From an uncultured Pseudomonadota bacterium (GTDB lineage: Bacteria; Pseudomonadota; Alphaproteobacteria; Rs-D84): a stretch of 64,000 bases of DNA. The notes under the pieces are model-generated. The model saw only the letters and a program-made list of their open reading frames with translations. It was not told the DNA's origin and did no database searches. The stretch is taken from assembly GCA_902762295.1 (NCBI GenBank), contig CACWNX010000001.1:532094-596093 (forward strand). The letters are read 5' to 3'. The position numbers were made by a program, and so were the translations under genes. This document shows positions 1 through 15,875 of the stretch, one piece after another. The number at the start of each line of letters is the position of its first letter. Position 1 is the stretch's first letter.

Positions 1-738
1 ATTGTTGATGTTGGTATATCGCGTTCCGGCTTAGTTGGTGTTTTTCGCAATGTTAAACCATTATCATGTGCCCACTTAGCTATACTTTTAACAGAATATT
101 GACCTGTCGCATATTCTTCAAACATCTTTTTAACCAAAGGCGCACGAACTGGGTCCAATGTAATGATTGCATTCTGTTTTTCATCTTCGTCATTTAAATA
201 CCCAAGTGGTGCGAAAGATTGCCATAAACCATTAGACCAATTTGTTTGCATTGAACGGTTAACATTATCGCGTAAACTATCAACATACGCTTGTGCAGCC
301 AATACACTCATATTCCATCGTAATTGTTCTGAAGATGTTGAATGGTCTGTAATGGTTAAACAATCTCTTAAAAAATGAATTTCCAATACAGATTTTTCTG
401 CCAAATCTTTTAATTCAACTGTCTCTTTAAAACTTCGTTGAATACGGTCAACACAGTCTGCAATTATAAGTGTTTTTGACTTTCTCGCTTTTACAAATTC
501 CAAAACTTCTTTAAATCGTTTGCGTTCACCGCGGGTTGAAGATTCAGTAATATTAAATATTTTTATTACTTTTATACCCATTGAATCACAGTATTGTTGA
601 CAATTCATAATCTGTGCGGTTGTAGATTGTCCACGCGCTTGTTCCCTTGAACTAACTCTGGCGAAAATCACCGCTTCTTTTGCTGTTGGACCGCTTGGTT
701 GTGCAAACAAATTATTAGTATTAAAAATATTTTCCATA
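1..738 (-). CDS. Large serine recombinase, N-terminal part. The gene runs off the window start, so it is partial.
   Basis: Minus-strand ATG at 738-736 preceded by an AAGGAG-like RBS. Translation MENIFNTNNLFAQPSGPTAKEAVIFARVSSREQARGQ... carries the resolvase-type catalytic serine motif (RVSSxEQ). The frame stays open to base 1, which is why it is absent from the ORF track. Confidence 0.65.
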
Positions 739-760
739 ATTTACTCCTTATAATTAGATT

Positions 761-943
761 TTATCGTGTATTAAATTGAAAGTACGCTGTTATTTTTTGC
801 TTTTTTTCTGTTTTATATGCTTTTGCTGCCATTGTAAAAAAATCAACCAGTTCCCATGCCATTGACGCCAGTTCTTTATCTGATATCTTTTCATCAGGAA
901 AAGCGTTTTTTATTTCTTTTTTCAATAAGTCAAAATCAGTCAT
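761..943 (-). CDS. Small hypothetical protein (60 aa) upstream of the serine recombinase; possible accessory or RDF-like factor.
   Basis: ORF from the track, co-oriented with and immediately upstream of the recombinase. No recognisable motif. Confidence 0.3.
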   Translation of the reverse strand: MTDFDLLKKEIKNAFPDEKISDKELASMAWELVDFFTMAAKAYKTEKKQKITAYFQFNTR

Positions 944-1077
944 TGTATAACATCTTTATTGTTTCATACTGACATCACAACCGTGTCAGAGATATTATAT
1001 AGAATTTGAACCCACAACCAATCTCTACGAACTAAACTTCCAATTCGGACAACAATTTTCCAATTCCGATAAAAATC

Positions 1078-1102
1078 TGGTTTGACCGACGGGGCAGACC
1101 AC
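1078..1102. repeat. Copy A of a 26-bp imperfect palindrome: TGGTTTGACCGACGGGGCAGACCAC.
   Basis: Aligns with the copies at 4528, 8826 and (inverted) 12546. Consensus GTGrTTTGACC-N4-GGGCrCACCAC. Confidence 0.6.
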
Positions 1103-1165
1103 GGTTATTAATCTGAAATAGCATGTTCGGTACAGAATAAACATGTGTGTTTTTGTCCCTTATTC

Positions 1166-1194
1166 TTGACTTTTTGTCCCAGATGTGTTATAAT
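1166..1194 (+). promoter_or_regulatory. Consensus sigma-70 promoter (TTGACT-17-TATAAT) driving the ietA-like operon.
   Basis: TTGACT at 1166-1171, 17-nt spacer, TATAAT at 1189-1194. RBS AGGGAGA lies 8 nt before the ATG at 1215. Confidence 0.6.
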
Positions 1195-1214
1195 GCACGA
1201 ACCAGGGAGAAAAA

Positions 1215-2255
1215 ATGAAAAAAAAGAATATAATAGATTTAATCAAATACCATGTAGAGGATAACGAACCGGCATTCCGTAATGAAGCATATGAAATTGC
1301 AAAGGACTTTGATTTGAATGGCGATTATCAATTAGCCGAATATATTATGAATTTAATGTCAAGCACGAATTCTTTTGTTCCACAACTGTTAGATAATGAA
1401 TCTTCTTTTTTAAAGAAGGTTGATATCAACACAGAACCATTGCCTTTACCTACCGCAATTAAAGATGATATTGTGGGCATTGTAAATGCGACAACACATA
1501 ATGTGGGGGTTAACAAATTTTTATTTGAGGGTGCCCCAGGCACAGGCAAAACCGAAACCGCTAAGCAAATAGCAAGAATTCTTAACAGGGATTTATTTGC
1601 TGTTGATTTTAGTACTATCATAGACAGCAAATTGGGGCAGACCATAAAAAATATCACGGCATTGTTTGATGAAATTAATTCTGTCGTGCATCCAGAAAAG
1701 GTTATAATTTTGTTTGACGAAATAGACGTGATTGCAATAGATCGAATGAATTCCAACGATTTAAGAGAAATGGGCAGAGCAACATCAACTATGTTAAAAG
1801 GTTTGGACTCTCTTAAAGATAAAATTGTTTTAATAGCAACGACAAACTTATTCACTTCGTTTGATAAGGCGCTTGTCCGCAGGTTTGATGCAGTAATAAA
1901 TTTTGATAGATATGGTCATGACGATTTGGAAGAAATTGCGACAATTATTTTGAACGATTTTTTACAAAAATTCAAAATTCCTGAACGCAATACCAAGTTG
2001 TTCAAAAAAATTTTGAATCTTATGGACAAGATACCATTGCCGGGTGATTTGAAAAATTTATTAAAAATTTCTGTCGCTTTCAGCAATCCTTCGGTGAAGT
2101 TTGATTATTTAAAAAGGTTGTTTAACACAATAACAAAAGAAAAAAACTTGGATATGCAAAAACTTCAATCTATGGGTTTTACAGTTAGGGATATTGAAAT
2201 CTTAACAGGTGTATCAAAAAGTCAGGTTTCCAGAGAATTAAGGGATAACAAATGA
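1215..2255 (+). CDS. ietA: AAA+ ATPase with C-terminal HTH, IetA-like (ATPase partner of an S8 protease).
   Basis: Walker A GAPGTGKT, Walker B ILFDEID, C-terminal HTH (ILTGVSKSQVSRELR). Its stop overlaps the start of the downstream subtilase (ATGA). The two-gene architecture matches the IetAS defence system from memory. Confidence 0.6.
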   Translation: MKKKNIIDLIKYHVEDNEPAFRNEAYEIAKDFDLNGDYQLAEYIMNLMSSTNSFVPQLLDNESSFLKKVDINTEPLPLPTAIKDDIVGIVNATTHNVGVNKFLFEGAPGTGKTETAKQIARILNRDLFAVDFSTIIDSKLGQTIKNITALFDEINSVVHPEKVIILFDEIDVIAIDRMNSNDLREMGRATSTMLKGLDSLKDKIVLIATTNLFTSFDKALVRRFDAVINFDRYGHDDLEEIATIILNDFLQKFKIPERNTKLFKKILNLMDKIPLPGDLKNLLKISVAFSNPSVKFDYLKRLFNTITKEKNLDMQKLQSMGFTVRDIEILTGVSKSQVSRELRDNK

Positions 2256-4468
2256 ATGAATTGTTGCAATTGAAAGGCAGATTTGAACAAAAAGCACGCA
2301 ATACCACTTTGGGAAGCCCTAATTTACCGACCAATGGTGTATTAAATGTGGAACATTTACGTGAATTAAAGTCTGAACTTGAATACCTTTTGGAATATTG
2401 GAAAGGCAACACAGTTATAAATGGTGCTTTGATAAGTGTGTTTTATACAGATATTATTCCAAAAAGCAGAAGAATCACGGGAACCTTTGCTAATGGCAAT
2501 ATTCATTCTAATGATTCTGTGGTTGGTGCCAAATTTATCGACGACGGCAAAACAAAACATGTTATAACACACTATATCTCTTTGGAATTATTAAAGAAAA
2601 CAATCGGGTTTTACGAATTAGCAATAGATGCATTGACGATTTTATTTAAAGGGGTCGTATCATACACAGATATTGATAAGATGAATAAAAAAATAATTCC
2701 ATATGATTACGATGGTCTGACTAAAACTAAATTTTTAAACATCATTATTGATGCGTATTATGTTGAAAAATTCGGAATAAATGTTCCAGAATACAATAAA
2801 AAGGAAAATTCAATTATTACAATTTATCAAACGGATATTCCAACTGGTTTGTTAATGGATCGTTTGGGAATAAAACTTCCGCCGACACGTATTATAGACC
2901 AAACAACAATGCTATTAACTCCCGATCAAATTGGTATTCTTTTTGATAAAGCCCCATATCTTGTGTCAATGTCTGTGACGGATTTGTCCAAATTCGATGA
3001 TATTGAATTAAAATTCACACAAACAAATAATACTATTGCGTCGATACCGTCCCCGAGTACAGAGCCTGTTATTGGTGTTATAGATACTCTTTTTGATAAT
3101 CGGGTCTATTTTTCTGAATGGGTAGAATACAAAGATATGGTATCTGCAGACATACCAAAAAAACAATCGGATTATGAACATGGGACAGCTGTTTCATCTA
3201 TCATAGTTGATGGTCCAACATTTAATCCAGAATTGGACGATGGCTGTGGCAGGTTTAGAGTTAGACATTTTGGCGTTGCAACTGGTGGTTCATTCAGCTC
3301 CTTTTCCATTTTGCGAGCCATCAAAGAAATTGTGGCAGCAAACAAAGATATAAAAGTATGGAATCTGTCATTGGGATCACAGTTGGAAATTAATGAAAAT
3401 TTCATATCACCAGAAGCCGCAATTCTTGATTCCATTCAGGCTGAAAATGATATTATTTTTATAATAGCTGGTACAAATAAAATAGACCCAAAATCAAAAA
3501 ATGTATTGATAGGTGCACCTGCAGATTCCATCAATTCGCTTGTCGTGAATGCAGTGACCCCTAAAAATTTGCCAACTGATTATTCCAGACGTGGCCCAGT
3601 ATTATCTTTTTTTATGAAACCTGACGTGAGTTATTATGGTGGTACAGATGACAACCGAATTCGGGTATGTACACCAACTGGTGAAAAACTTGTGCAAGGA
3701 ACATCCTTTGCGGCGCCTTGGATTGCCAGGAAAATGGCGTATTTGATTCATATTGCCGGTTTAACCAGAGAAGTGGCGAAAGCTTTGATTATAGATGCGG
3801 CAACTGGATGGAAAAAAGAAACAGATACAACAGAATACATCGGGCATGGCGTAGTCCCGGTCAAAATAAATGATATTGTTCAATCCCCAAAAGACGAAAT
3901 AAAATTCTTTTTGTCTGGCAAATCTGAGAAATACGATACCTATAATTATAATATACCTGTTCCAATTTCCAATGAAAAACATCCATTTATTGCGAAAGCA
4001 ACTCTGTGTTATTTTCCTGCGTGTTCAAGAAATCAAGGGGTGGATTATACCAATACGGAATTAGATATTTTATTTGGCAGGATTGGCAACGATAATGCGA
4101 TAAAACCAATTAATAACAATTACCAATCGGAAGTCGGACATTTCATGTATGAAAAAGAAGCCAGAAAATATTACAGAAAATGGGACAACATTAAACACAT
4201 TCGAGAAACAGAAAATAAAAACAAACCAAAGAAAATTTATACCGGGATGTGGGGAATTAGTATAAAAACAAAAGAACGCTTAGAACAAAAATTTGGCGAG
4301 GATTTGAAATTTGGAGTAGTTATAACACTAAAAGCAATTGATGGTGTAAACAGAATTGAAGATTTTATACAGCAATGTTCTTTACGCGGTTGGTTGGTTA
4401 ATAGAATCAACATTGAAAATAAAATTGATATTTATAATGCTGCAGAAGCTCATGTTGATTTTAGTTAA
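2252..4468 (+). CDS. ietS: S8 subtilisin-like serine protease, IetS-like.
   Basis: Asp motif VIGVIDT, His motif HGTAVSS, Ser motif GTSFAAPWIA in the canonical order, after a ~250-aa N-terminal extension. Translationally coupled to the upstream ATPase. Confidence 0.7.
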   Translation: MNELLQLKGRFEQKARNTTLGSPNLPTNGVLNVEHLRELKSELEYLLEYWKGNTVINGALISVFYTDIIPKSRRITGTFANGNIHSNDSVVGAKFIDDGKTKHVITHYISLELLKKTIGFYELAIDALTILFKGVVSYTDIDKMNKKIIPYDYDGLTKTKFLNIIIDAYYVEKFGINVPEYNKKENSIITIYQTDIPTGLLMDRLGIKLPPTRIIDQTTMLLTPDQIGILFDKAPYLVSMSVTDLSKFDDIELKFTQTNNTIASIPSPSTEPVIGVIDTLFDNRVYFSEWVEYKDMVSADIPKKQSDYEHGTAVSSIIVDGPTFNPELDDGCGRFRVRHFGVATGGSFSSFSILRAIKEIVAANKDIKVWNLSLGSQLEINENFISPEAAILDSIQAENDIIFIIAGTNKIDPKSKNVLIGAPADSINSLVVNAVTPKNLPTDYSRRGPVLSFFMKPDVSYYGGTDDNRIRVCTPTGEKLVQGTSFAAPWIARKMAYLIHIAGLTREVAKALIIDAATGWKKETDTTEYIGHGVVPVKINDIVQSPKDEIKFFLSGKSEKYDTYNYNIPVPISNEKHPFIAKATLCYFPACSRNQGVDYTNTELDILFGRIGNDNAIKPINNNYQSEVGHFMYEKEARKYYRKWDNIKHIRETENKNKPKKIYTGMWGISIKTKERLEQKFGEDLKFGVVITLKAIDGVNRIEDFIQQCSLRGWLVNRINIENKIDIYNAAEAHVDFS

Positions 4469-4527
4469 ACCGAAATTTTATTCTACTTAAGAATAATAAA
4501 GTTCTTATATATAAAAATAGAAAAAAT

Positions 4528-4553
4528 GTGGTTTGACCGATGGGGCGCACCAC
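4528..4553. repeat. Copy B of the 26-bp palindrome: GTGGTTTGACCGATGGGGCGCACCAC.
   Basis: Abuts the stop codon (4557-4559) of the serine recombinase gene. Confidence 0.6.
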
Positions 4554-4556
4554 AAA

Positions 4557-5156
4557 TTACCAACCCATACGATTTATAAAATTTGATACGGTTGCGGGTG
4601 ATACAGACATCATTTTTGCAATACGGTATTTTGTGAATCCTGCATCTAACCAATTTTTAATCTTTTTGGTATTGCGTGATAATTTCAATTTCTTTGATTG
4701 GGCTGCAAAGGGGCGTCCTAATCTTTTACCGGTTGCACGAATACTGTCCAGGGATGCTTTGGTGCGTTGTGATATTAAATTTCTCTCTATCTCTGCCGAA
4801 AGCCCAAAGGCAAATGCCATAACTTTACTTTGAATGTCGTTTCCTAATCTGTAATGTTCCTTTAATGTCCAAACCTGGCAATTTTTATTCAAACAGGTTT
4901 CTAAAATCCGCATAACTTCCAACAATGAACGACCAAGGCGTGAAATTTCAGCAGCAATCAAAATATCTCCGTCTTGTAATTCATCCAATAATTGCCCAAG
5001 TTTTCTTTTGTTTAATGGTTTTCTTGATGATATTGTTTCTTCAAGCCATCTATCCACTATTATATTGTTTTGATGTGCAAATTGTTCAATTTCAAAATGT
5101 TGATGTTCGCATGTTTGTTTATTTGATGATACACGAATATACCCAATAACTGCCAT
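4557..5156 (-). CDS. Small serine recombinase, DNA invertase/resolvase family (Hin/Gin/Tn3-resolvase-like).
   Basis: N-terminus MAVIGYIRVSSNKQ with the catalytic Ser. C-terminal HTH (YRIAKMMSVSPATVSNFI). 199 aa. Confidence 0.85.
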   Translation of the reverse strand: MAVIGYIRVSSNKQTCEHQHFEIEQFAHQNNIIVDRWLEETISSRKPLNKRKLGQLLDELQDGDILIAAEISRLGRSLLEVMRILETCLNKNCQVWTLKEHYRLGNDIQSKVMAFAFGLSAEIERNLISQRTKASLDSIRATGKRLGRPFAAQSKKLKLSRNTKKIKNWLDAGFTKYRIAKMMSVSPATVSNFINRMGW

Positions 5157-5417
5157 TTTTTCTAATCCTTTGGTTGATTAACTGTTTCAATTTAATAGAA
5201 CGTTTGTGGAATAAGCACCAAGAAACTAATCCGTTAAAACTTTAAAATCTTTGTCTGCCTTGGTTTTCTAAGGATTTTTAATTATAAAAATTTATTCATA
5301 AAAAATTCTGAAACTAAAAAAAATATGTTGATTTTATCGTTGGTTTGTTTTATAGTCCTATTCGTGGATAAAAAGAAGTATTCACAGTTTTTAATATTAA
5401 AAATAAAAGGAAAAAAA

Positions 5418-7331
5418 ATGAGACAATCAAAAACAACTTTAAAAGAATTAACCGCTCAATATCGTAGCGTGTTAAAACGTGCTTTTATTGCTGGTGTTAT
5501 GGCTGTCGCAACCGCTAATAGCGCAAATGCAGCAATTACACCTAGTGATATTAGTACCATTAACGATAGTATCAATATGGTGCAATCGGATGGAAATTAT
5601 ACAACTAGCATGGGTGATTTTAATGCTGGCACAACCGATTATAGCACTGCGGCAGGATATGGTTTGTACACATACGACCATGATAATAATCCAGAAACAG
5701 CAGAAATTGCATTAACTACAAACGATGGTAGTGAAACATTAGATAATACAGTATTCACATATACAGACAATACTGGTGCAACAACTAACTTAGGTGATAA
5801 TGCAACTGGATTTACAACAAGTGATTTTACAGGTGCGGCCGGAACAATAGATGTTGCTGATGGTACAACTGATTTGACAACATTAGAAGCAAATACAACA
5901 ACCGTTGGTTTAGGAAATTATCAATATATGGCTAACTTTGATAACTCTGGTGATGCATTAACAGCTTTGACAGAGGATGCACCAGAATTGAGTTCTTTCC
6001 ATAATGATATTACTTTAACAACAGGTGCAATCACTGTTAACGGAAACGACGAAGTAAACAAACCAAGTATCGACCAATATGGTTTTGCTATTACATTGCA
6101 TGATGGCAGCACAGGAAACTTTGATTTGGTTTATAATGAATCTACACACTTGTATTCTTATAATTATGATGGCGATGTTGTATTGGATGCAGCAGATATT
6201 GCAGCTGCGGATGCACAAGTTTCATCACAGTCTGCAAATTTAATTGCTGACACAACATTGTTCAATGGTGCTGTTGCGACAAACACAACCAATTATAACA
6301 GTGCAGTTGGCCATTATAATACTGTTCATGGTGTTTATGAATCTGATACAAATACTCAAAGCACATTAAATACTAATTATGGTAATTATGAAACAAGCTT
6401 TGCAGAAGCACAGGCGAATCAAACTGCTGCTGCTGGAAACTTATCAGAAGCACAAGGGGCTTATGCTGCTGATTTAGCAATATATACTCCGGTTGCAACT
6501 GCATATAATAACTATGAAAATTCTTTGGGTAAAAGTATAGACGCAAAGGATGAAACTGTATTAACAAGTGCAAAAGATTATGCAGATAGTTTAGCAGATA
6601 ACTATGATGCAGCGGGTTCAGCTGATGCCGAAAAGACACGTGCACAAGGTGAAGAAACCGCTATCCGTAGTGAATTTGCAGCAGCTGATACAACTCTGCA
6701 GAACAATATCGATGCAGAAACAAGTCGCGCGCAAGGGGAAGAAACCGCTATCCGTAGTGAATTTGCAGCAGCAGACACTACTTTGCAAAACAACATAAAT
6801 GCAGAAGCAACAGCTCGTCAAGCTGCAGATACTACATTGCAAGCTAACATCGATGCCGAAGCAAGCACTCGTGCAGCTGCTGATACAACTTTGCAGAACA
6901 ATATCGATGCTGAAGCTTTAGCTCGTGCTAATGCTGATACGGCATTGCAGAACAATATCGACAACGAAGTTGCTCGTGCTACAGCACAAGAAGCTGCTAT
7001 CCGTGGCGAAATTGCCGCTGCTGATGCTATGACATTGTCAAAAGCTAACTCTTACACAGACAGCCGTGTGAACACACTTGAAAAGAATGTATCTGGTGGT
7101 GTTGCAGCAGCTACAGCCTTATCATCAGTAGAAGTATCTAATGTAAAGAAAGGTGAAGTATCCGTTGGTGGTGGTTACGGATATTACAACAGCCAATCTG
7201 CAATGGCATTAGGTGCAGCTATGGGCTTGTCTGATAGATGGTCCATCAATGCAGGTGCCGGTATTGCAAGTGGTGATAAAACACAAGTAGCATTCCGTGC
7301 CGGTACAAACTACAAATTTAAATTGTTTTAA
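5418..7331 (+). CDS. Trimeric autotransporter adhesin, YadA-like.
   Basis: RBS plus ATG at 5418 (MRQSKTTL...). Long extended signal peptide ending ANSANA. Thr/Asn-rich passenger. Coiled-coil stalk with 14-26-aa repeats (AADTTLQNNIDAE...). C-terminal ~70-aa YadA-type anchor ending ...AFRAGTNYKFKLF. Confidence 0.7.
   Translation: MRQSKTTLKELTAQYRSVLKRAFIAGVMAVATANSANAAITPSDISTINDSINMVQSDGNYTTSMGDFNAGTTDYSTAAGYGLYTYDHDNNPETAEIALTTNDGSETLDNTVFTYTDNTGATTNLGDNATGFTTSDFTGAAGTIDVADGTTDLTTLEANTTTVGLGNYQYMANFDNSGDALTALTEDAPELSSFHNDITLTTGAITVNGNDEVNKPSIDQYGFAITLHDGSTGNFDLVYNESTHLYSYNYDGDVVLDAADIAAADAQVSSQSANLIADTTLFNGAVATNTTNYNSAVGHYNTVHGVYESDTNTQSTLNTNYGNYETSFAEAQANQTAAAGNLSEAQGAYAADLAIYTPVATAYNNYENSLGKSIDAKDETVLTSAKDYADSLADNYDAAGSADAEKTRAQGEETAIRSEFAAADTTLQNNIDAETSRAQGEETAIRSEFAAADTTLQNNINAEATARQAADTTLQANIDAEASTRAAADTTLQNNIDAEALARANADTALQNNIDNEVARATAQEAAIRGEIAAADAMTLSKANSYTDSRVNTLEKNVSGGVAAATALSSVEVSNVKKGEVSVGGGYGYYNSQSAMALGAAMGLSDRWSINAGAGIASGDKTQVAFRAGTNYKFKLF
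6620..6975 (+). repeat. Intragenic near-identical tandem repeats within the adhesin stalk. Unit ~78 bp; two copies nearly perfect, with ~3 further degenerate copies.
   Basis: The protein segment RAQGEETAIRSEFAAADTTLQNNIDAE is duplicated. TTLQ(N/A)NIDAEA repeats occur seven times. Confidence 0.8.
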
Positions 7332-7365
7332 TAAATCCTGATAATTTATTTTTGTTAGTATAAAC

Positions 7366-7400
7366 AATCCCTATATGCAAATATGGGGATTCGTTTTTTT
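7366..7400 (+). terminator. Rho-independent terminator after the adhesin gene.
   Basis: Hairpin AATCCCTATATGCAAATATGGGGATT followed by T7. Confidence 0.6.
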
Positions 7401-7722
7401 AGTTAACGCTTGCCACGGCCTGAATTTGAAGCATTCATACATGTTTTATTGAACTTCTTTGCATAAGTATTGTTGCCGTTTACCATTTGCGCATAAAATA
7501 CGACGATAGCTATACAATTTAAACAGTTTATCTTTAACTATATCAATTTAATAGTAAATACGACTCTGTTTTGCTCCGAAAGACTAAAAATAGTCAAAAA
7601 TCCTTAAAAATAGGGCTTTCGGGACTCTTTTTTTGCATTTTTTAGTTCGCGAAGGCCTAAAAACACGACATAATTTAAGTGTAAAAGAAGCAAAAAAGAA
7701 CCTAAAAACAAAGGAGTATACA

Positions 7723-7998
7723 ATGCTTAAACTTTACAAAAACTGGTTAATTCAAAAAGGTTATTCTACCACAACGCAGAATAACAAACCATCGACCGTT
7801 TACGACTATACCACATCGATTATTCGTGTGTGTAATTGGGAATCAAAGACGATTGAACAGTTAGCAGAATCTATTTCGACGATATTACCGCAATATACAA
7901 TCGGTGAACATTCTGCGCGTGGCCGTATGAAAAGCCGTGCTGTTCGTTGCAGTGTTAGGGCTTTCTCTAAATTCTTAATTGAAACACAGGTGGCTTAA
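7723..7998 (+). CDS. Hypothetical small protein (91 aa); weak resemblance to an integrase N-terminal SAM-like domain.
   Basis: AGGAG RBS 7 nt before the ATG at 7723. Pattern YKNWLIQKGYSTTTQNNKPSTVYDY. First gene of a three-gene plus-strand operon. Confidence 0.45.
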   Translation: MLKLYKNWLIQKGYSTTTQNNKPSTVYDYTTSIIRVCNWESKTIEQLAESISTILPQYTIGEHSARGRMKSRAVRCSVRAFSKFLIETQVA

Positions 7999-8332
7999 CA
8001 TGAATATGAATAAGATTGCTGAATTAAACGATAACCTGCGAAAGAATTTATTTACACCTGGGCAAAACCAGGTGTTTATATCGCATGGTGTTAACTCTTT
8101 GCCACATATTGAACGGGCTCGGTTGTTAGACAAAGTCCAAAATTTTAATGATTTTAATCACGCAAACGACCCATATAAAGAACACGATTTTGCACGCATA
8201 GAACACAGGGGAATAAATTATTTGTTCAAAATAGATTATTACAACCTTGATATGGATGCCGGTTCTGATGACCCAAGTAATCCAGATGTTACCACGCGTG
8301 TTTTAACGATAATGCGCGCAGACGAATATTAA
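7999..8332 (+). CDS. Hypothetical protein (~110 aa).
   Basis: ORF overlaps the end of the upstream gene. A start at 7999 (MNMNKIAELN) is plausible. No recognised motif. Confidence 0.4.
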
Positions 8333-8347
8333 ACAAAAGGAAATGAT

Positions 8348-8524
8348 ATGATAGCAGCCGTTCAACAAGTTGGAAATAATGTTCGTGTTTTAAACGAACA
8401 GGGTTTAACTCTGTTTATGAAATGTGGCGAATTAGTTGGATACACATCTCAAACCATCAGCATAAGATTAAATTCAACCGTTTGGACTTATGATTCTAGT
8501 GGCCGATGTTTGTTTGGAAGGTAA
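8348..8524 (+). CDS. Hypothetical small protein (58 aa).
   Basis: Compact ORF after an AAGGAAA RBS, followed directly by a strong terminator. Confidence 0.35.
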   Translation: MIAAVQQVGNNVRVLNEQGLTLFMKCGELVGYTSQTISIRLNSTVWTYDSSGRCLFGR

Positions 8525-8530
8525 ATATAA

Positions 8531-8565
8531 AACCTGCTGATTTTGAGTTAGCAGGTTATTTTTTA
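8531..8565 (+). terminator. Rho-independent terminator.
   Basis: AACCTGCT-N11-AGCAGGTT hairpin plus T8. Confidence 0.7.
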
Positions 8566-8676
8566 TCATTGTTCCAAATTTAGCCCAGAATCACCCCAAT
8601 TTGATTTGGTTTATAACTTATATCCGGTTAGTATTTGGGGCAACCACACTTGGTTTTTGGAACAATATGGTATGTT

Positions 8677-9366
8677 TCAGGTGATTGCGATACTATTGAT
8701 TAGATAATCTGGCTTATAATTTGCAATATTCAACCTTATCGGTAATGTGGCTATTTGATACCATAAACAAACGATAAATAATGGCTTTAATACAAATCGT
8801 TTAACCCATTTTACGAATTTGGATTGTGGTTTGACCTGTTGGGCGCACCACTTTTGTTGTTTCTTTTCTGGGATGTTAAATATAGTCGTTGTGGTTGATA
8901 GACGGCCTTTTATATCATGCTCAGTTTTGATTTGTTTGACGCAATAAAAAAATAAATGTTCCGGTGTAAAGGTTATAGGTTCCAATTCAAATGTTTGGTG
9001 TGTAAGGCGCAAATCATATTCGGTTCTATCCAGCGCACCTTGTAATTGTTCGGTTGTATATTTGCAGTTATAAATCAATATGTGAAAATGATAACCAAAC
9101 CATGAATTTTTTTCGGCAATACATATCATTGGCAGCGGTTTTTTGTTCCAGTGGTTCGGTCTAAGGCATTTTTGAAATCGTTTTATGACGGCTTTTAATT
9201 TGGCGTTATATTTATCTAAACCGCCATTTCGCCAATTCAATGGTAGTTGCACCGTTAAAAAGTGGCTTGGGTGATATTGCGATATGGCGTTTATTAACTT
9301 GACTTGGGTTGGTGTTGGTTCGCATTTTTCTTCGTTCAGCCATTGATTAACTTTATCTTGATACAT
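8677..9366 (-). CDS. HUH-endonuclease-superfamily protein, rolling-circle replication initiator (Rep)-like.
   Basis: Motifs in Rep order: motif I HFLTVQL (FLT), motif II GYHFHILIY (HUH), motif III FFYCVKQIK (YxxK). The 3' end of the ORF reads through palindrome copy C, so the true C-terminus is uncertain. Confidence 0.5.
   Translation of the reverse strand: MYQDKVNQWLNEEKCEPTPTQVKLINAISQYHPSHFLTVQLPLNWRNGGLDKYNAKLKAVIKRFQKCLRPNHWNKKPLPMICIAEKNSWFGYHFHILIYNCKYTTEQLQGALDRTEYDLRLTHQTFELEPITFTPEHLFFYCVKQIKTEHDIKGRLSTTTTIFNIPEKKQQKWCAQQVKPQSKFVKWVKRFVLKPLFIVCLWYQIATLPIRLNIANYKPDYLINSIAIT
8826..8851. repeat. Copy C of the 26-bp palindrome: GTGGTTTGACCTGTTGGGCGCACCAC.
   Basis: Same orientation as copies A and B. 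Lies inside the 3' end of the Rep-like ORF. Confidence 0.6.
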
Positions 9367-9553
9367 TTTTTAAACCTTTATTTAATGGGTATAAAAATTT
9401 ACATAGGACAGCGCGAAACAGGTCCCATTGAATCTAAACAGCAAAGCGTTATGATGGACGCGATGCCCAATTTAATAGAACCGATTTTTTACAGGATTCA
9501 TGTCGCAGAAATTTTCCGAAATATAAAAAATCCCCCAACGAAGGGGGACTGTA

Positions 9554-11341
9554 TCAGAAATCCTTGTTCTGAATCTGATAAATCAGTTGCGCGAAGCACC
9601 GATTTACGACAGTTGGACAGTAGTGTTCGCCCAGCATTGTTCTGAATTCATCATCCGTCACCACAATATCACCGTGTTGTATTGCGGTTGGGTCGGATTC
9701 AGGAATCGGACCATTTTTGCACCAGATATTACCTTTGCCGTCTCTGATTTTGATTTTTTCAGGTAATTCAAAATCTTTCGGCATACCCATCAACACCAGA
9801 ATTTCATAAAGTGTTCTATGCCGTGCGTCAGACTGTGTTCCATTTGTTCTGCAACGACCAGCCGGAAAATAATGCGCCGGTGCACCAGAGTGTGAAGATT
9901 CGCCAGTAATTGTTGGGGCCGGTCTATCACCATGTGCGCGTTTGATATTCACTTTCTCTATGCTACCGTCCGAATTATGAACTAATGCCAAAGTGTTTTT
10001 GCCTGCCTCGGTATTTTTCAACGCTTCAATAATTTCTGGTGCCAAATCCAGCGCATAATGCAATCGATTAACATCCATTCTTTGTTCGCCGGCTTCAATA
10101 GAAGGAATATCCTGCAAACACAGTTCTTCTGAAATTTTGAATTCATCTGGTTTGGGAAATTTCCAGACATTGGCGTCGGTTATTTCGGTTGTACCAAGAA
10201 TCTTTTGCACAAATTCTTTTTTGATACCCAGAATTATCGCACGATTACGGTTTTCGCCTGTGCCATAGCAATCTGCGTTAAGATAATCAATGTTGGTGAT
10301 GTAGCCCAATTCGTCGGCCTTATCTTTGATGTAATCATAGACGGTATCATAATTTTCATCTTTAATTGTGTCTGGACAACCTCCCAAAAATTCGGGAACG
10401 TTTTCACACATAAACATATCGTTATTATCACCGATATCCTCCAAAAATTGCATACCATACATGACCAATGAAGCATCAACCCGATTGACATTTTGTGTAC
10501 CCGCCTTGGAATAGGACTGACACGGCGGTGACATTAACACCACGCGGCATCTCCGCTTTTTGTGTGCTTTCAAAATCTGTTTGTATACGCTTAGGTTGGC
10601 TATACTACCCGTTATGACTTTACAACTTGGGTACAATTCTTGATGAATTTGCGCCCGTTTATCATGTAATTCGTTTGCTACGGCAACATTGATGTTCAAA
10701 TTTTTCAACAGGCACGTGCCTAAACCGATGTTTGCAAATAAACTGGTTGCACGCACTGTTTTATCAAATTTAACATTTGCTGGCAAAACAATATTTGAAA
10801 ACGCACCATGACATGTGTGTGTTGCCAATTTGGGATTTTTCTTTTTACAGCCCCTTTTTATTGTCAAGGCGCTGTTGATGCTTGGTACATCACCATTGGC
10901 CTTGGCTTCTGCTTTGGCTTTCGCCACACAGTCTGCGTCCAATTCACAGATGCTATGCCAGCGTTTGCCTTTTTTAAACCCATGCGCTTCCATTAATTTA
11001 TCTTTTGCTATCCGTGCTGCTGTAACTGCTGCGCCACTGCCTTTTGTGGGGCCAAGCGCTCTGACTTTATCCGCAATTCTGACGCCTTCATCCAATACTT
11101 TTCCAGCAATATCTTGCGCAAGGTCCAGCAAGTAATTATACAATTCTGGTTCCATATATGCGCAAGACCTCATAAGTTCAATTGCCGCATCAGTCGCTAT
11201 CATTCCCTGTGAAATATAGTCCGCTGTTCCAGCAGGTGTGGCAGGTAAAGCGGGTGGTGCCACAGTTATTACTGCTGGGGTTGAAGTTGTTAATGTTGGT
11301 GCTGTTGCACCGCTTGAAATAGATATACTTTTTGTTGCCAT
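9554..11341 (-). CDS. DNA (cytosine-5)-methyltransferase with a ~190-aa N-terminal extension.
   Basis: Motif I LFANIGLG, motif IV PPCQSYSKAG (the PCQ catalytic Cys), motif VI CENVPEF. The N-terminal region MATKSISISSGATAPTLTTST... is low-complexity. Confidence 0.85.
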   Translation of the reverse strand: MATKSISISSGATAPTLTTSTPAVITVAPPALPATPAGTADYISQGMIATDAAIELMRSCAYMEPELYNYLLDLAQDIAGKVLDEGVRIADKVRALGPTKGSGAAVTAARIAKDKLMEAHGFKKGKRWHSICELDADCVAKAKAEAKANGDVPSINSALTIKRGCKKKNPKLATHTCHGAFSNIVLPANVKFDKTVRATSLFANIGLGTCLLKNLNINVAVANELHDKRAQIHQELYPSCKVITGSIANLSVYKQILKAHKKRRCRVVLMSPPCQSYSKAGTQNVNRVDASLVMYGMQFLEDIGDNNDMFMCENVPEFLGGCPDTIKDENYDTVYDYIKDKADELGYITNIDYLNADCYGTGENRNRAIILGIKKEFVQKILGTTEITDANVWKFPKPDEFKISEELCLQDIPSIEAGEQRMDVNRLHYALDLAPEIIEALKNTEAGKNTLALVHNSDGSIEKVNIKRAHGDRPAPTITGESSHSGAPAHYFPAGRCRTNGTQSDARHRTLYEILVLMGMPKDFELPEKIKIRDGKGNIWCKNGPIPESDPTAIQHGDIVVTDDEFRTMLGEHYCPTVVNRCFAQLIYQIQNKDF

Positions 11342-11677
11342 TTTTTACTCCTTCTGAGTTTTTTTGGCCGCAAAAACCACCTTGCCCGTAGGCGCTTATA
11401 TGGGGTTCCTGCGAAATTAACTGAAAAATTTTTTTAACCTAAATCACCTATCGGCAATTTTCGGTTGCAAGTAAAAAATGGTTTTGTATAATTAAGATGT
11501 TTCAAGTCTCTTATACAACCATTTTTACTTGGCTTGTTTTGAGATTCTAGGGGTATGACTTTATGTTGTGCTCCTTTTTTTATTGATTAACTTGGGCACA
11601 ATATAAATGCAAAAAGGCAGTAAATCAATTACTGCCGTTCACCAAAAAAGTGGCTGTTTTCTGGGTTTTCTTAGTTT

Positions 11678-12487
11678 TTATAACTCATGTTTTTCAAGAA
11701 ATCTGCGTGGTGTATGAGTTTTTGAATAATTGATTAAGTGTTCTTTTATTTCGTCGTATGCTTTTTTATGTTTTTCGCTGGGATGTTTCGAAGAATATCC
11801 ACGCTTATATAATATGTTCAGATATTTTTGTAGTTCTGATATTGGAAAACGAATTTCACCATTTTCTTTTTTTATGTGTCGTGGAAAAACAGTTTGTGTC
11901 CCGTGTGTATTGCCTTTGTTGGGTGCAAATGAGTTTTGATGTTTTACCCAGTTATAAATTATTGGAAAACTCACACCAAATGAAGCATGCACTCTATACA
12001 CATCGATTGCTTTGTGTGGTTCTAATGATTGTATTTTAATAACACCACCAGGACGATTTTTTAACCAGTTTGTGGCAACTATTAACTTAGCAGAAAAATC
12101 AGCTGAAGGTGAATATGTACGGTCATATCGAATAAGATTTTCATAAGATATTTCGTCTTTTTCTTCATCTGAGAATTCGCGTTCTGTATCATCTATGAAC
12201 TTTCCAGTATAAAACCAACATGAATTATCGTGTTCATCATATTTATCGTGTTTATCTGGTTCGAATTCAAAAGATTCATTATGTAAAATGTCAGCATATT
12301 GTTTATGTTTAATACAAAATCTGCGAATTGTTTGATTCAGATTTGTTTTTATATGTTGTTGTAATTCTGATAACAAAAAATATGGGGTGTGAATTCTGGT
12401 ATGTAAACCCGCCAAATATTCTGGACTGGTTATAACCACTATAAAATTATCAACTTCGTATTGTTCAATTCTGTATGTTATTTTCAT
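11678..12487 (-). CDS. Hypothetical protein (269 aa); candidate restriction endonuclease or partner of the C5-MTase.
   Basis: Co-oriented, directly upstream of the MTase. Acidic D/E-rich central stretch. No recognisable catalytic motif. Confidence 0.5.
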   Translation of the reverse strand: MKITYRIEQYEVDNFIVVITSPEYLAGLHTRIHTPYFLLSELQQHIKTNLNQTIRRFCIKHKQYADILHNESFEFEPDKHDKYDEHDNSCWFYTGKFIDDTEREFSDEEKDEISYENLIRYDRTYSPSADFSAKLIVATNWLKNRPGGVIKIQSLEPHKAIDVYRVHASFGVSFPIIYNWVKHQNSFAPNKGNTHGTQTVFPRHIKKENGEIRFPISELQKYLNILYKRGYSSKHPSEKHKKAYDEIKEHLINYSKTHTPRRFLEKHEL

Positions 12488-12545
12488 AAAATCACCTGTT
12501 TTTGATGTGTGTATTTTGCACCATGTTCATAATAATCGCAAGTTT

Positions 12546-12571
12546 TTATCAAAATTGTGGTGTGCCAAGTG
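12546..12571. repeat. Copy D of the 26-bp palindrome, inverted orientation: GTGGTGTGCCAAGTGGGTCAAATCAC.
   Basis: Its reverse complement GTGATTTGACCCACTTGGCACACCAC matches the consensus. Confidence 0.55.
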
Positions 12572-12865
12572 GGTCAAATCACATTTCACTGAATAGCATG
12601 CATTAAAAAATTTGACCCTTCGCGTAAAGGCCTTTGAAATTTTTTTAATTTACAGTTAGCGATTTGATAACCGGATGTACGGTGGTGTATGGGGGGCGGC
12701 GGGTTCGTATCGGTGGCATCCGCGGTACCGGTTGCCGATATTGCCAGACGGGGTACATCCACTACCTTGGTATGAGTAGATATTCGTATTTATTTAAAAA
12801 TAGTTTGATTTCTTTGCCAAATTGCAACAAATCTTTGATTTCATTAGTTCGTGAATTGCACAGAT

Positions 12866-13443
12866 GGCCCTGCCAAAAATTAAAAATACCCGAATGGGTA
12901 TTTTTTATTTTTGTTCAACCCCCGGGTTTGAACCGGGATGGGTGCGAGGCGATAGTCGCAGCACCAATACGAGAATACACAATTAGAAAAATCATAAAAA
13001 CGGGGTCTGTTATGACGAGTTTTTATAGATTTTTATTATTGCGTATCGAGGAGGCGAGTGAAAATCCGAGTGGGACAATTAAGAAAATCTTAAAAAATCG
13101 ACTTTGGAGAATTTTTTTGATTTTATTTATTGCGTATCGAGGAGGCGAGTGAAAATCCGAGTGGGGCTGCCAGAAATCAAAAATGCCACCTTGGGTGGCG
13201 TTTTTTATTTCTCTTGGCGCCCCACGAGGATTGCGCAAGAATGTCAACGGCACGACAAGTGCCGTTTGAAAACGCAGTTTTCGTGGGCGGCCGCCCACAA
13301 GACATGCATGGCGAAAACGCAGACGAACAATTAGCAAACCCGCAAAAACGGATATGTTTAATAGAGTTTTTGCACATGGGTTTGATTATTGTTTGTCAAG
13401 GAAGCGGTGGGGCTGCCAAAAATCAAAATCCCGATTTTTTACG
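12866..13443 (+). repeat. Repeat-rich GC-rich non-coding block. It holds two ~45-bp direct repeats (13031-13074 and 13122-13167, TTATTGCGTATCGAGGAGGCGAGTGAAAATCCGAGTGGG). It also holds three copies of a GGGCTGCCAAAAATCAAAAAT-hairpin-T-run module (12866, 13163, 13408).
   Basis: Read directly from the sequence. The ORF-track entries here are short, overlapping and mutually antisense, and are judged spurious. The modules look like small-RNA 3' ends or terminators. Confidence 0.6.
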
Positions 13444-13620
13444 AACAAACTAAGCGATTTTTTCAAAGAAAACCGGGCTTTTTTATTGTCTACATAACAG
13501 TTCACAAATATCAACCGTAAAAACGCACTACTTATATCAATTCTCGAACTTTTCTTATAACAAATTGATTTATTAAATATTTTTGATATAATACCCAGCA
13601 GGATAATCTGGAGAATAAGA

Positions 13621-14124
13621 ATGGCTGGCATTATAGTATTCGGTGTTCCAAAAGGTTTTGATACATCAAGGTGCGATATAAATACGCGCAGATTTTTAGA
13701 GAGATTTTATGTGCCACACAATCCTGGTACAGAAATGAAGATTGTTCGCGGACCAAATAATAGTGTGCATTATTTGTTCATGGTATATGAAAATAAAGAT
13801 ATGGCATTCTGCGATGTTGATGGGCGTAGTGGTTCCTTTTTCGGCATCGATGTAATGTTGCAAAATCAATATATAACGGATACAAATAAACTTTTAAAAT
13901 TATTTCAGTTGACTTATGATAAATATGTGAAAAATAAAATCGTTGATGAAACTCCTAACGGTGTCAGAAAACACAAATTCAAAACGTTTGATAATGGTGA
14001 TAATGCAATAGCAACTTATGTAGCCAATAGTATGAATGCTTTGGTAAAAGAAAGACCAGAATTAAATATTTTCGAAGACATTCGGCAATTACCACCTGCC
14101 CAAAACCAAATGCAGAGGTATTAA
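13621..14124 (+). CDS. Hypothetical protein (167 aa).
   Basis: ORF from the track with RBS-like AGGA upstream. No motif. Confidence 0.5.
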   Translation: MAGIIVFGVPKGFDTSRCDINTRRFLERFYVPHNPGTEMKIVRGPNNSVHYLFMVYENKDMAFCDVDGRSGSFFGIDVMLQNQYITDTNKLLKLFQLTYDKYVKNKIVDETPNGVRKHKFKTFDNGDNAIATYVANSMNALVKERPELNIFEDIRQLPPAQNQMQRY

Positions 14125-14208
14125 AAATTTTGCAAAAATGTTTTTATTTCTTTCCCGAATCGCAACAATTCACGTATAACAGATATTTTGTGATAAAATT
14201 ACCATAAT

Positions 14209-14236
14209 TTGACATATTGTATGCCTGTGGTATAAT
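14209..14236 (+). promoter_or_regulatory. Consensus sigma-70 promoter (TTGACA-16-TATAAT), 8 nt upstream of the lipoprotein ATG. Implies a leaderless or near-leaderless transcript.
   Basis: TTGACA at 14209-14214, TATAAT at 14231-14236, ATG at 14244. Confidence 0.5.
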
Positions 14237-14243
14237 TTATGCT

Positions 14244-14360
14244 ATGAGAAAGATTTTATTATTTTTAATCTGTGTTTTTACGATTGCGATGGCGGGCTGT
14301 GGCGTAAAATCTGATTTGGCGCGCCCCGACGGCCCATTGCGCGATTACCCAGTGTACTAA
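14244..14360 (+). CDS. Small lipoprotein (38 aa).
   Basis: MRKILLFLICVFTIAMAGC, a type II signal peptide with a lipobox. Below the 60-aa cutoff, so absent from the ORF track. Confidence 0.5.
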   Translation: MRKILLFLICVFTIAMAGCGVKSDLARPDGPLRDYPVY

Positions 14361-14366
14361 GGGGGC

Positions 14367-15866: not shown

Positions 15867-15875
15867 TCACACCTA

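What the first reader, a model, noticed from the sequence alone, without database searches (positions are those of the whole stretch)
1078..12571. Four copies of a 26-bp imperfect palindrome (one inverted) split the island into gene cassettes, next to serine recombinases and an HUH Rep-like protein
GTGrTTTGACC-N4-GGGCrCACCAC occurs at 1078, 4528 and 8826 in the same orientation and at 12546 inverted. Each half has a GTGGT...ACCAC arm, as in hix/res-type sites. Copy B abuts the stop of the Hin/resolvase-type recombinase. Copy C lies in the 3' end of a Rep-like HUH gene. Copy A lies between the large serine recombinase and ietA. The directly repeated pairs A-B and B-C bracket the IetAS cassette and the adhesin cassette. 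The inverted pair C-D brackets the C5-methyltransferase module (~3.7 kb). The sites could therefore mediate cassette excision or shuffling, or inversion of a methyltransferase segment in a phasevarion-like switch. Alternatively they could be the Rep nick sites. I do not recognise the motif as a known site.
Basis: seen in the sequence. Interest (0 to 1): 0.75.

Follow-up and report, generated by a model that had tools for sequence, protein, structure and literature searches.

The report
Recombinase sites bounding defence-island modules
Four copies of a 26-base symmetric DNA site mark the module joints of a mobile anti-phage defence island in an uncultured gut bacterium, are most likely the target of the island's small serine recombinase, and are where a defence gene cassette was inserted.

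Summary
Exactly four sites exist in the 64 kb: A 1077-1102 (+), B 4528-4553 (+), C 8826-8851 (+) and D 12557-12582 (-). They score 38-46 bits against 8 for the next best, and all lie in one island.

The island sits at the 3' end of a tRNA-Glu gene and belongs to a family of large-serine-recombinase (LSR) islands in gut Alphaproteobacteria (Ca. Enterousia-like).

Related contigs show recombination at the sites:
- Islands reading LSR-p60-[one site]-Res are the "empty" state. The window has the same joint plus a 3451-bp IetA-IetS insert with the site on both sides.
- The A-to-C block has been re-inserted at a C-type site elsewhere.
- Divergence steps sharply at C.

The LSR is probably not the enzyme. 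Its own att sites are the tRNA end and about 12845-12885, and the motif is unchanged between LSR lineages that are 44% identical and target different tRNAs. The motif tracks the 199-aa Mpi-like small serine recombinase (84-98% identical), whose stop codon abuts B. It does not track the Rep-like gene.

No inversion of the methyltransferase segment appears in 10 independent contexts. The enzyme assignment and present-day activity are inferred, not shown.

The parts
1..737 (-). 5' part of the large serine recombinase gene (534 aa in full; the rest lies left of the window and reads into tRNA-Glu)
   Evidence: Pfam Resolvase+Recombinase+Zn_ribbon_recom on the full gene in L031
761..943 (-). 60-aa ORF (p60/p50) that always precedes the LSR gene; function unknown
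1028..1076 (.). Conserved block left of site A with two TTCCAATTC(C/G)GA repeats; probably the regulatory region of the p60-LSR operon. It is 95% identical even where the LSR gene is only 66% identical.
1077..1102 (+). Site A: CTGGTTTGACC GACG GGGCAGACCAC
   Evidence: homology to five related loci stops exactly at 1102
1103..4527 (+). IetA-IetS defence cassette (ietA 1215-2255, ietS 2252-4468) with its own promoter at 1166-1194; an insert relative to the empty-site islands
4528..4553 (+). Site B: GTGGTTTGACC GATG GGGCGCACCAC; identical to the single site of the empty islands L037 and L018
4557..5156 (-). 199-aa small serine recombinase (Res199), Mpi-like; candidate enzyme for the sites
5325..8524 (+). 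Second cargo plus backbone: YadA-type adhesin (5325/5418-7331), p91 (7723-7998), DUF3768 (8000-8332), p58 (8348-8524)
8826..8851 (+). Site C: GTGGTTTGACC TGTT GGGCGCACCAC, inside the 3' end of the Rep-like ORF
   Evidence: divergence against L032 drops from 30-66% to about 3% across it
8677..12487 (-). Rep-like HUH ORF (8677-9366), C5 DNA methyltransferase (9554-11341) and p269 (11678-12487); backbone module
12557..12582 (-). Site D (inverted): GTGATTTGACC CACT TGGCACACCAC on the minus strand, just upstream of the p269 promoter
12583..12885 (.). Conserved right arm of the island, ending in the LSR attR (about 12845-12885; a tRNA T-arm mimic followed by a displaced tRNA 3' end ...ATGGCCCTGCCA)

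Best explanation
The 26-bp sites are the binding and crossover sites of the island's own small serine recombinase (Res199, 4557-5156, an Mpi-like resolvase/invertase-type enzyme). Each site has two 11-bp half-sites, GTGRTTTGACC and GTGGTNYGCCC, inverted around a 4-bp centre that is usually G-A-Y-K. A recombinase dimer would bind each site, and two occupied sites would pair and exchange strands near the centre. Over evolutionary time this has inserted, removed and re-positioned gene blocks at the joints of a modular defence island. The clearest case is the IetA-IetS cassette between A and B, which went into the single site that lies just after the recombinase's stop codon. The island as a whole is moved by a different enzyme, the LSR, which integrates it into the 3' end of tRNA-Glu.

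Shown: the sites, their restriction to the island, their position at rearrangement joints, the empty and occupied states, and the LSR's separate att sites. Inferred: that Res199 is the enzyme, that exchange is at the centre of the site, and that the system is still active.
For: 1. The site geometry (12-2-12, 26 bp, dyad symmetric) is that of hix and res site I crossover sites. Conservation fades within 4-5 nt outside the 26 bp.
2. B lies 3 nt from the Res199 stop codon. In other lineages a site lies 12-72 nt from it: L015, L094, L101, L110.
3. A 51%-identical plasmid homologue (pHRM2a) is flanked by inverted 27-bp dyad sites, one of them 28 nt after its stop codon.
4. The motif is unchanged across islands whose LSRs are 39-44% identical and target tRNA-Gln instead of tRNA-Glu, while Res199 stays 84-98% identical.
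5. At the lineage level, all 3 motif-bearing LSR lineages carry Res199, and none of at least 7 motif-free lineages does. The best-controlled pair is L110 (Res and motif) against L109 (neither), which share a backbone at 89% DNA identity.
6. Res plus a site occurs without any LSR in L015.
7. L037, L018 and L101 read LSR-p60-[one site]-Res. The window equals that arrangement plus 3451 bp with the site on both sides, and B is identical to the resident site.
8. The same IetAS block, bounded by sites, sits in a different slot in L032-L035. A type VI retron cassette lies between two sites in L094.
9. Homology break-points pile up at the site edges, and divergence steps at C.
Against: - No experiment or read-level junction shows recombination today. 
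- The central dinucleotides of A, B and C differ (AC, AT, GT). A classical serine recombinase tolerates that poorly, so A x B and B x C may now be inert. 
- Three of the five cargo types in the slot next to Res (PDC-S06, AriA/OLD-like, p273-p214) have a site on one side only.
- Res199 homologues at 91% identity occur with no site within 9 kb (L125-L129), and arrays with sites but no intact Res exist (L091, L035, L011).
- Cargo also varies at the same slot in the motif-free island L109, so the motif is not needed for variability there.
- No accessory sites or enhancer were identified. 
- The lineage-level association is confounded by shared host clade.
Confidence: 0.5

Rival explanations
1. The sites are secondary (attI-like) targets of the large serine recombinase, which captures circular cassettes next to its own gene as an integron integrase does.
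For: A site always lies about 340 bp upstream of the p60-LSR operon in the Glu and Gln lineages. The identical LSR allele P0001 is followed by different first cassettes: IetAS, PDC-S06 and a retron. Arrays with an LSR but no intact Res exist (L091, L035). The b half-site plus centre (CCGATGGGGC) resembles the tRNA-Glu 3' end (CCGAGTGGGGC) where the LSR crosses over.
Against: The LSR's own attL and attR (tRNA end; 12845-12885) do not look like the motif. The motif is the same in islands whose LSR is 44% identical and targets tRNA-Gln, whose 3' end is different (TGCCCCAACCA). Conservation covers only about 28 bp, short for an LSR att site. LSR relatives at 31-48% identity, including L109 with the same backbone, have no such site.
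Confidence: 0.1
2. The sites are protein-binding or insulator/terminator elements at module borders with no recombination role. The duplicated copies and sharp borders come from homologous exchange between related islands.
For: Several copies have an A-rich left flank, which gives a hairpin plus U-run on the opposite strand. Sites sit between convergent genes (B) or upstream of promoters (A, D). Sharp conserved/variable borders also arise in hotspots that exchange by homologous recombination. Cargo varies in the motif-free L109.
Against: The hairpins are weak (-8 to -14 kcal/mol, z -0.2 to -2.4) and the terminator scan does not call them, although it calls true terminators nearby at 8531-8557 and 9550-9529. 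Unrelated cassettes would not all carry the same 26-bp terminator. The empty-versus-occupied comparison shows one site becoming two around an insert with no other flanking homology. The a/b half-site asymmetry is conserved in 40 of 46 copies.
Confidence: 0.15
3. C (or M4 in other islands) and D are the ends of an invertible segment. The Mpi-like invertase flips the methyltransferase module as a phase-variable epigenetic switch.
For: Res199 scores 267.9 bits on the 'master DNA invertase Mpi family' model. The methyltransferase-p269 module is flanked by inverted copies in many lineages: L005, L006, L010, L021, L032, L101. C and D carry the same central GT on the same strand. In L006 the module, bounded exactly by its two sites, sits in a different context.
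Against: All 10 contexts with the identical p269, and all other lineages, show one orientation. The promoter is inside the segment and a terminator is outside, so inversion would not turn the operon off. The same central dinucleotide on the same strand would favour deletion, not inversion, for a classical serine recombinase.
Confidence: 0.12
4. The sites are nick or origin sites of the HUH Rep-like protein, and blocks move by rolling-circle transposition or replication.
For: C lies in the rep-like ORF. The motif is an imperfect palindrome, as many HUH substrates are. The Rep-like protein has HUH-like (HFHIL) and YxxK patterns and a weak PF23343 hit.
Against: The motif occurs without a rep-like gene in L015 and L091. 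L109 carries the Rep191 variant (called with a weak PF23343 hit) and has no motif. The sites are dispersed over 11 kb rather than placed at an origin. The single-strand hairpins are weak.
Confidence: 0.04

Closest known systems
hix/gix/mix crossover sites of Hin-Gin-Min DNA invertases and site I of Tn3/gamma-delta res
   Same: A 26-28 bp dyad-symmetric site made of two roughly 12-bp half-sites around a 2-bp centre. It is bound by a dimer of a roughly 190-aa serine recombinase with a C-terminal HTH that is encoded next to one site. Several sites can occur per element (Min). Recombination at res is known to make mosaic Tn3-family transposons (own knowledge).
   Different: No sequence similarity to hix or res. 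The site lies 3' of the gene rather than 5'. No accessory sub-sites or enhancer were found. Three copies are direct and one is inverted, spread over 11.5 kb. The central dinucleotides differ between copies. The inferred outcome includes insertion of a cassette, which classical resolvases and invertases do not perform.
Mpi, the master DNA invertase of Bacteroides fragilis (NCBIfam NF009949)
   Same: Res199 aligns over the full length of the model at 267.9 bits and is about 50% identical to proteins annotated as this family. One recombinase serves several dispersed sites. The gene is divergently adjacent to surface-protein genes (YadA, BigA, Slam-like).
   Different: The score is just under the curated cutoff of 272. 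Mpi targets are short promoter segments flanked by inverted repeats with a different consensus (own knowledge), and no such short inverted pair exists in the window. Proteins named as this family also include a resolvase next to a Tn3 transposase, so the name does not fix the reaction.
Integrons (IntI, attI, attC cassette arrays), including chromosomal integrons that store defence systems
   Same: A recombinase-proximal site where different, mostly defence, cassettes are found. Imperfect palindromic sites separate the blocks. A cassette is seen in more than one slot.
   Different: No tyrosine integrase is present. The sites are 26 bp, uniform, and not attC-like. The cassettes carry their own promoters and can hold several genes. 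Many block borders have no site. Cargo also varies in a motif-free sister island.
SCCmec-type composite islands and tandem accretion of integrative elements
   Same: A serine-recombinase island at a fixed chromosomal target with repeated att-like sites between modules. Remnants of older islands lie downstream (13047-13553).
   Different: There the repeated sites are the LSR's (Ccr) own att sites. Here the LSR att sites are separate from the motif.
Association of small serine recombinases with anti-phage defence systems (Andersen et al. 2026, PMC13552941)
   Same: A small serine recombinase gene sits directly beside defence systems (IetAS, retron VI, PDC-S06, AriA/OLD-like). That paper postulates that such recombinases mobilise or invert defence genes.
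   Different: A term search of that paper's text found no mention of recombination sites, inverted repeats, palindromes or excision, so it appears to give no site or mechanism. Here a candidate site and empty/occupied states are defined. The bait recombinase there is from Enterococcus, and homology to Res199 was not tested.

Membership tests
Crossover site of a small (resolvase/invertase-type) serine recombinase | Dyad-symmetric site of about 26-28 bp with two roughly 12-bp half-sites around a central dinucleotide | tested here: met
   46 unique copies: information content is high at positions 1-11 and 16-26, the centre is R-Y in 41 of 46, and conservation fades within 4-5 nt outside
Crossover site of a small (resolvase/invertase-type) serine recombinase | Cognate recombinase with an N-terminal catalytic Ser domain and C-terminal HTH encoded next to a site | tested here: met
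   Res199 has PF00239 (E 1e-31) plus an HTH, and the catalytic-serine motif YIRVSS is present. It aligns to Gin and gamma-delta resolvase. B lies 3 nt from its stop codon.
Crossover site of a small (resolvase/invertase-type) serine recombinase | Identical central dinucleotide in sites that recombine with each other | tested here: inconclusive
   A is AC, B is AT, C is GT, and D is GT on the plus strand. Across all copies AT occurs 20 times, AC 13 and GT 7. The differences may postdate the events.
Crossover site of a small (resolvase/invertase-type) serine recombinase | Accessory sites (res II/III) or a recombinational enhancer | not tested
   None was noticed in the flanks, but no dedicated search was made
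Crossover site of a small (resolvase/invertase-type) serine recombinase | Recombination at the site by the enzyme | not testable with these tools
   Only comparative traces are available: empty and occupied sites, a relocated block, and divergence steps
Mpi family master DNA invertase (NF009949) | Score at or above the curated cutoff of the equivalog model | tested here: not met
   267.9 bits against a cutoff of 272, full-length alignment
Mpi family master DNA invertase (NF009949) | Targets are short invertible promoter segments between inverted repeats | tested here: not met
   The window has only four sites. The nearest inverted pair (C, D) is 3.7 kb apart and encloses whole genes with their promoter.
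Large serine recombinase att sites | Sites resemble and co-vary with the LSR's own attP/attB | tested here: not met
   attL is at the tRNA-Glu end and attR at 12845-12885, and neither looks like the motif. The motif is identical in tRNA-Gln-targeting islands with a 44%-identical LSR.
Integron | Tyrosine integrase IntI with attI and attC sites | tested here: not met
   Both recombinases are serine type. The sites are uniform 26-mers, not attC.
Xer dif / pdif modules | 11-6-11 site with the conserved XerD arm; neighbouring sites alternate in orientation | tested here: not met
   The length is compatible (28 bp with flanks), but there is no similarity to dif (own knowledge of the dif consensus). 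The orientations are + + + - in the window and + + + + + - in L032.
REP/BIME dispersed palindromes | Tens to hundreds of copies spread through intergenic regions of the genome | tested here: not met
   No copy in the 51 kb of the window outside the island. One or two strict matches per related MAG, in the Enterousia-like MAG loci examined in detail all in this kind of locus.
Rep (HUH) origin or nick site | Co-occurrence with the rep gene | tested here: not met
   The motif occurs without rep in L015 and L091. The rep-bearing L109 has no motif.
Intrinsic terminator | Stable GC-rich hairpin followed by a U-run | tested here: not met
   -8 to -14 kcal/mol, z -0.2 to -2.4. Not called by the terminator scan.

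The most novel reading that the evidence does not exclude
A small serine recombinase and its 26-bp site form a cassette-capture device inside tRNA-targeting LSR islands. Circular defence cassettes that each carry one site are inserted at, and excised from, the site just downstream of the recombinase gene. This would be a serine-recombinase counterpart of the integron. It would also explain mechanistically why small serine recombinases sit next to anti-phage systems across bacteria.
Probability: 0.2. Interest if true: 0.85.

Novelty: new variant of a known kind. Interest (0 to 1): 0.6.

Why it matters
Small serine recombinases were recently shown to be reliable neighbours of anti-phage defence systems. 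The paper that showed this (PMC13552941) postulates that they mobilise or invert defence genes, and a term search of its text found no mention of recombination sites, inverted repeats, palindromes or excision.

This locus supplies what is needed for a direct test:
- a defined 26-bp candidate site;
- a recombinase gene that abuts it;
- natural "empty" and "occupied" versions of the same joint, the occupied one holding an IetAS cassette;
- the same cassette in a second slot.

It also documents a family of large serine recombinases whose genes read into, and integrate at, the 3' ends of tRNA genes (Glu, Gln, Tyr, Arg, Pro). These islands carry a defence-cargo hotspot in uncultured, reduced-genome gut Alphaproteobacteria.

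Tried and rejected
- **Analogous sites near distant LSRs.** I looked for repeated palindromes upstream of LSR relatives at 31-39% identity. None was found.
- **Motif-like repeats in L109.** None was present; ordinary terminators occupy the analogous positions.
- **Structured RNA.** Rfam at E<=1 on 1-17000 returned only tRNA-Leu.
- **Viral contigs.** A scan for the motif gave 0 hits.
- **LSR attB-like origin of the motif.** The b half-site resembles the tRNA-Glu 3' end. I rejected this because tRNA-Gln-targeting islands carry the same motif.
- **LSR attL/attR half-site model** (a = B-type, b = P-type). It fits the inverted pairs around the methyltransferase and retron modules but not the direct pair around IetAS.
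- **Crossover point within the site.** Comparing the same cassette in different contexts did not locate it. The spacer and position 21 reassort without a clean pattern.
- **Exact-protein look-ups** for p60 and Res199 returned only the window's own arrangement.
- **Contig ends.** They do not coincide with the sites, so they give no signal of population heterogeneity.

Full report
**1. The observation**

The pattern search finds four copies and none in 100 shuffles.

| Site | Coordinates | Strand | Sequence |
|---|---|---|---|
| A | 1077-1102 | + | CTGGTTTGACCGACGGGGCAGACCAC |
| B | 4528-4553 | + | GTGGTTTGACCGATGGGGCGCACCAC |
| C | 8826-8851 | + | GTGGTTTGACCTGTTGGGCGCACCAC |
| D | 12557-12582 | - | GTGATTTGACCCACTTGGCACACCAC |

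- A weight matrix built from 35 related copies gives the four sites 38-46 bits. The next best position in the 64 kb scores 8.1, and shuffles reach at most 17.7.
- D scores 42.4 bits on the minus strand against 20.6 on the plus strand, so its inversion is real.
- There is no copy in the 51 kb of ordinary chromosome to the right of the island.

**2. Genes and the island**

From left to right:
- the first 246 codons of a 534-aa large serine recombinase (LSR, 1-737, minus);
- a 60-aa ORF (761-943, minus);
- site A;
- IetA (1215-2255) and IetS (2252-4468), confirmed by PADLOC at E 4e-39 and 5e-65;
- site B;
- a 199-aa Resolvase+HTH protein, Res199 (4557-5156, minus);
- a YadA-type adhesin, p91, DUF3768 and p58;
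- site C, inside the 3' end of a 229-aa Rep-like ORF (8677-9366, minus; sub-threshold PF23343 hit; HFHIL and YxxK patterns);
- a C5 methyltransferase (9554-11341, minus) and p269 (11678-12487, minus);
- site D.

The window is identical to contig ERZ27279989 k141_1704341 from position 8787 of locus L031. The extra 8.8 kb shows core genes, then tRNA-Asp, then tRNA-Glu(ttc). The LSR reading frame runs into the 3' end of tRNA-Glu.

Islands that sit in different chromosomal surroundings share sequence with the window up to about 12862. There, a mimic of a tRNA T-arm is followed by a displaced tRNA 3' end. The island therefore runs from the tRNA-Glu 3' end (attL) to about 12845-12885 (attR). All four sites are internal to it.

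Further right, at 13047-13553, lie more tRNA-Glu 3' fragments and a 148-bp, 92%-identical copy of the LSR gene's 3' end. These are scars of older islands.

**3. Distribution of the motif**

- One scan of 185,579 species genomes returned 30 loci. About half are in Candidatus Enterousia or unnamed gut Alphaproteobacteria MAGs, with recognisably homologous flanks. The rest look like chance matches in GC-rich or Acinetobacter coding sequence.
- No viral contig has the motif.
- It is therefore a low-copy, lineage-specific, island-bound element and not a dispersed repeat.

**4. Rearrangements at the sites**

- *Break-points.* Homology between the window and related loci stops exactly at the edge of A in five loci (L011, L017, L018, L023, L027). 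It starts or stops at B in several others.
- *One cassette, three contexts.* Look-ups with the exact IetA protein found the IetAS cassette in three settings:
  - between the LSR and Res199 (the window, L036, L087);
  - between DUF3768 and the Rep-like gene (L032-L035);
  - as the only cargo of a minimal island (L091/L092).
  It is bounded by motif copies each time.
- *A block that moved.* In L032 and L035 the piece that moved is the window's A-to-C block with an internal deletion. It was re-inserted at a C-type site behind another "...p91-DUF3768-tail" unit.
- *Empty and occupied joints.* L037 (LSR 89% identical), L018 (74%) and L101 (44%) read LSR-p60-[one site]-Res. In L037 the two alignments to the window overlap on that single site, which is identical to B. 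The window is therefore the same joint plus 3451 bp carrying IetAS and a second copy of the site.
- *A second cassette.* L094 has a type VI retron cassette (RT_VI and HTH_VI) between two sites at the same joint. There the two sites are in inverted orientation.
- *Step in divergence.* Between the window and L032, mismatches fall from 15-33 per 50 nt left of C to 0-7 per 50 nt right of it.
- *Methyltransferase module.* The methyltransferase-p269 module is flanked by inverted copies in L005, L006, L010, L021, L032 and L101. In L006, bounded exactly by its two sites, it sits in a different context.

**5. Which protein uses the sites**

*The LSR.* This family integrates at tRNA 3' ends:
- Glu in the window's lineage;
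- Gln in the lineage 43-44% identical to it (L011, L017, L023, L038, L101);
- Tyr in L109;
- Gln, Arg and Pro in relatives at 36-38% identity.

Three observations argue against the LSR:
- Its att sites are the tRNA end and the right-arm mimic, and they do not resemble the motif.
- The motif is the same in the Glu and Gln lineages, although their targets differ (…GAGTGGGGCTGCCA against …AGCTGCCCCAACCA).
- A resemblance between the motif's centre plus b half and the tRNA-Glu end (CCGATGGGGC against CCGAGTGGGGC) therefore does not generalise.

*Res199.* Several observations favour it:
- It is 84-98% identical in every motif-bearing lineage.
- L110 (Res and motif) and L109 (neither) share their backbone at 89% DNA identity.
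- None of the other LSR relatives with at least 5 kb of flank has Res or the motif.
- L015 has Res plus a site in a glycosyltransferase cluster with no LSR nearby.
- The site is 26 bp, 12-2-12, with conservation confined to about 28 bp. This is the geometry of hix and res site I sites and is short for an LSR att site.
- Res199 aligns to Gin and gamma-delta resolvase. It scores 267.9 bits on the Mpi-family model, whose cutoff is 272.
- It is about 50% identical to plasmid proteins given the Mpi-family name. One of them, on pHRM2a, is flanked by inverted 27-bp dyad sites, the second lying 28 nt after its stop codon. Another sits beside a Tn3 transposase. The family therefore contains both invertases and resolvases, and the name alone does not tell the reaction.

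Against a strict pairing:
- Res homologues at 91% identity in L125-L129 have no site within 9 kb.
- L091, L035 and L011 have sites but no intact Res.

*Rep.* The motif occurs without a Rep-like gene (L015, L091), and the Rep-bearing L109 lacks it.

*Terminator.* The hairpins are weak, and the scan that finds real terminators nearby does not call them.

**6. Inversion**

- Ten contexts from different samples carry the identical p269. All read outer flank-D-p269-methyltransferase-Rep-C, even where the outer chromosomal flank differs. The other lineages agree.
- The p269 promoter lies between D and the start codon, inside the segment, with a terminator just outside D. A flip would therefore not uncouple the operon from its promoter.
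- The phasevarion-like reading is not supported. Rare inversion cannot be excluded from consensus assemblies.

**7. What remains unsettled**

- Not every module border has a site. The adhesin cargo between Res and p91 varies without one.
- Three of the five cargo types next to Res have a site on one side only.
- Cargo also varies at the same slot in the motif-free L109.
- The central dinucleotides differ among A, B and C.
- The half-site asymmetry (A at position 9 against C at the mirror position, in 40 of 46 copies) is conserved but unexplained.

The sites are therefore one route of rearrangement in a mosaic island family, not the only one. Whether they are active today is unknown.

**8. Context and verdict**

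- The slot next to Res holds IetAS, PDC-S06, a type VI retron, an AriA/OLD-like ATPase with a restriction-modification set, or nothing.
[quoted passage not shown] It postulates mobilisation or inversion, and a term search of its text found no mention of recombination sites, inverted repeats, palindromes or excision.
- This locus gives that idea a concrete, testable site.
- I rate it a new variant of a known kind: crossover-type sites of a resolvase/invertase-class recombinase, used here at the joints of a defence island. The enzyme assignment carries moderate confidence (0.5), and interest is 0.6.

Noticed in passing
L031 7805-7975 with window 1-737; loci L017, L101, L038, L011, L109, L040, L043, L048: A family of large serine recombinases whose reading frames run into the 3' end of a tRNA gene. 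They integrate there, with different lineages using tRNA-Glu, Gln, Tyr, Arg and Pro. tRNA targeting is usually associated with tyrosine integrases.
   Followed up: partly
window 12864-13553: A stack of tRNA-Glu 3'-end fragments (12864-12885, 13047-13075, 13140-13182 with a perfect 19-mer, 13400-13428). There is also a 148-bp, 92%-identical copy of the LSR gene's 3' end (13407-13553). These are scars of earlier islands at the same tRNA.
   Followed up: partly
window 12788-12890; L032 17712-17827 and 19063-19204; L035 15709-15801 and 18720-18859; L012 5409-5511: A repeat of about 100 bp that ends in a tRNA-like ...CCA and a terminator. It recurs several times to the right of islands in related contigs and may be a series of att remnants.
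   Followed up: no
window 12660-12760: A GC-rich stretch (about 60% GC in a 35% GC region) inside the conserved right arm of the island. It gave no Rfam match. It could be a structured RNA or part of the LSR attP arm.
   Followed up: partly
window 5265-5285 and 7590-7610: A 21-nt inverted repeat (86% complementary) brackets the whole YadA-type adhesin gene that is divergent from Res199. Res-adhesin adjacency recurs with other surface proteins: BigA in L095, Slam-like in L110, YadA in L125.
   Followed up: no
window 6624-6968: The adhesin gene has tandem 87-nt and 54-nt coding repeats. Allele length differs between otherwise identical islands (637, 619 and 668 aa in L031, L118 and L036).
   Followed up: no
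window 8525-8529; L115 10963-11460, L118, L120, L121: Related islands carry an extra insert of about 500 bp with a 165-aa ORF exactly here, just before the terminator at 8531-8557. This is a break-point not associated with the motif.
   Followed up: no
window 7723-8332: p91 has a faint match to the SAM-like N-terminal domain of phage integrases (E 0.0065) and is always paired with DUF3768. The pair is conserved across all island lineages, including motif-free ones.
   Followed up: no
L132 2705-2731 and 3634-3660 (Desulforapulum plasmid pHRM2a): An Mpi-family recombinase gene is bracketed by inverted 27-bp dyad-symmetric sites about 930 bp apart. This looks like a hin-type self-inverting segment.
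   Followed up: partly
window about 56000: Cumulative GC skew changes sign near 56 kb. This could reflect gene orientation or a replication landmark.
   Followed up: no
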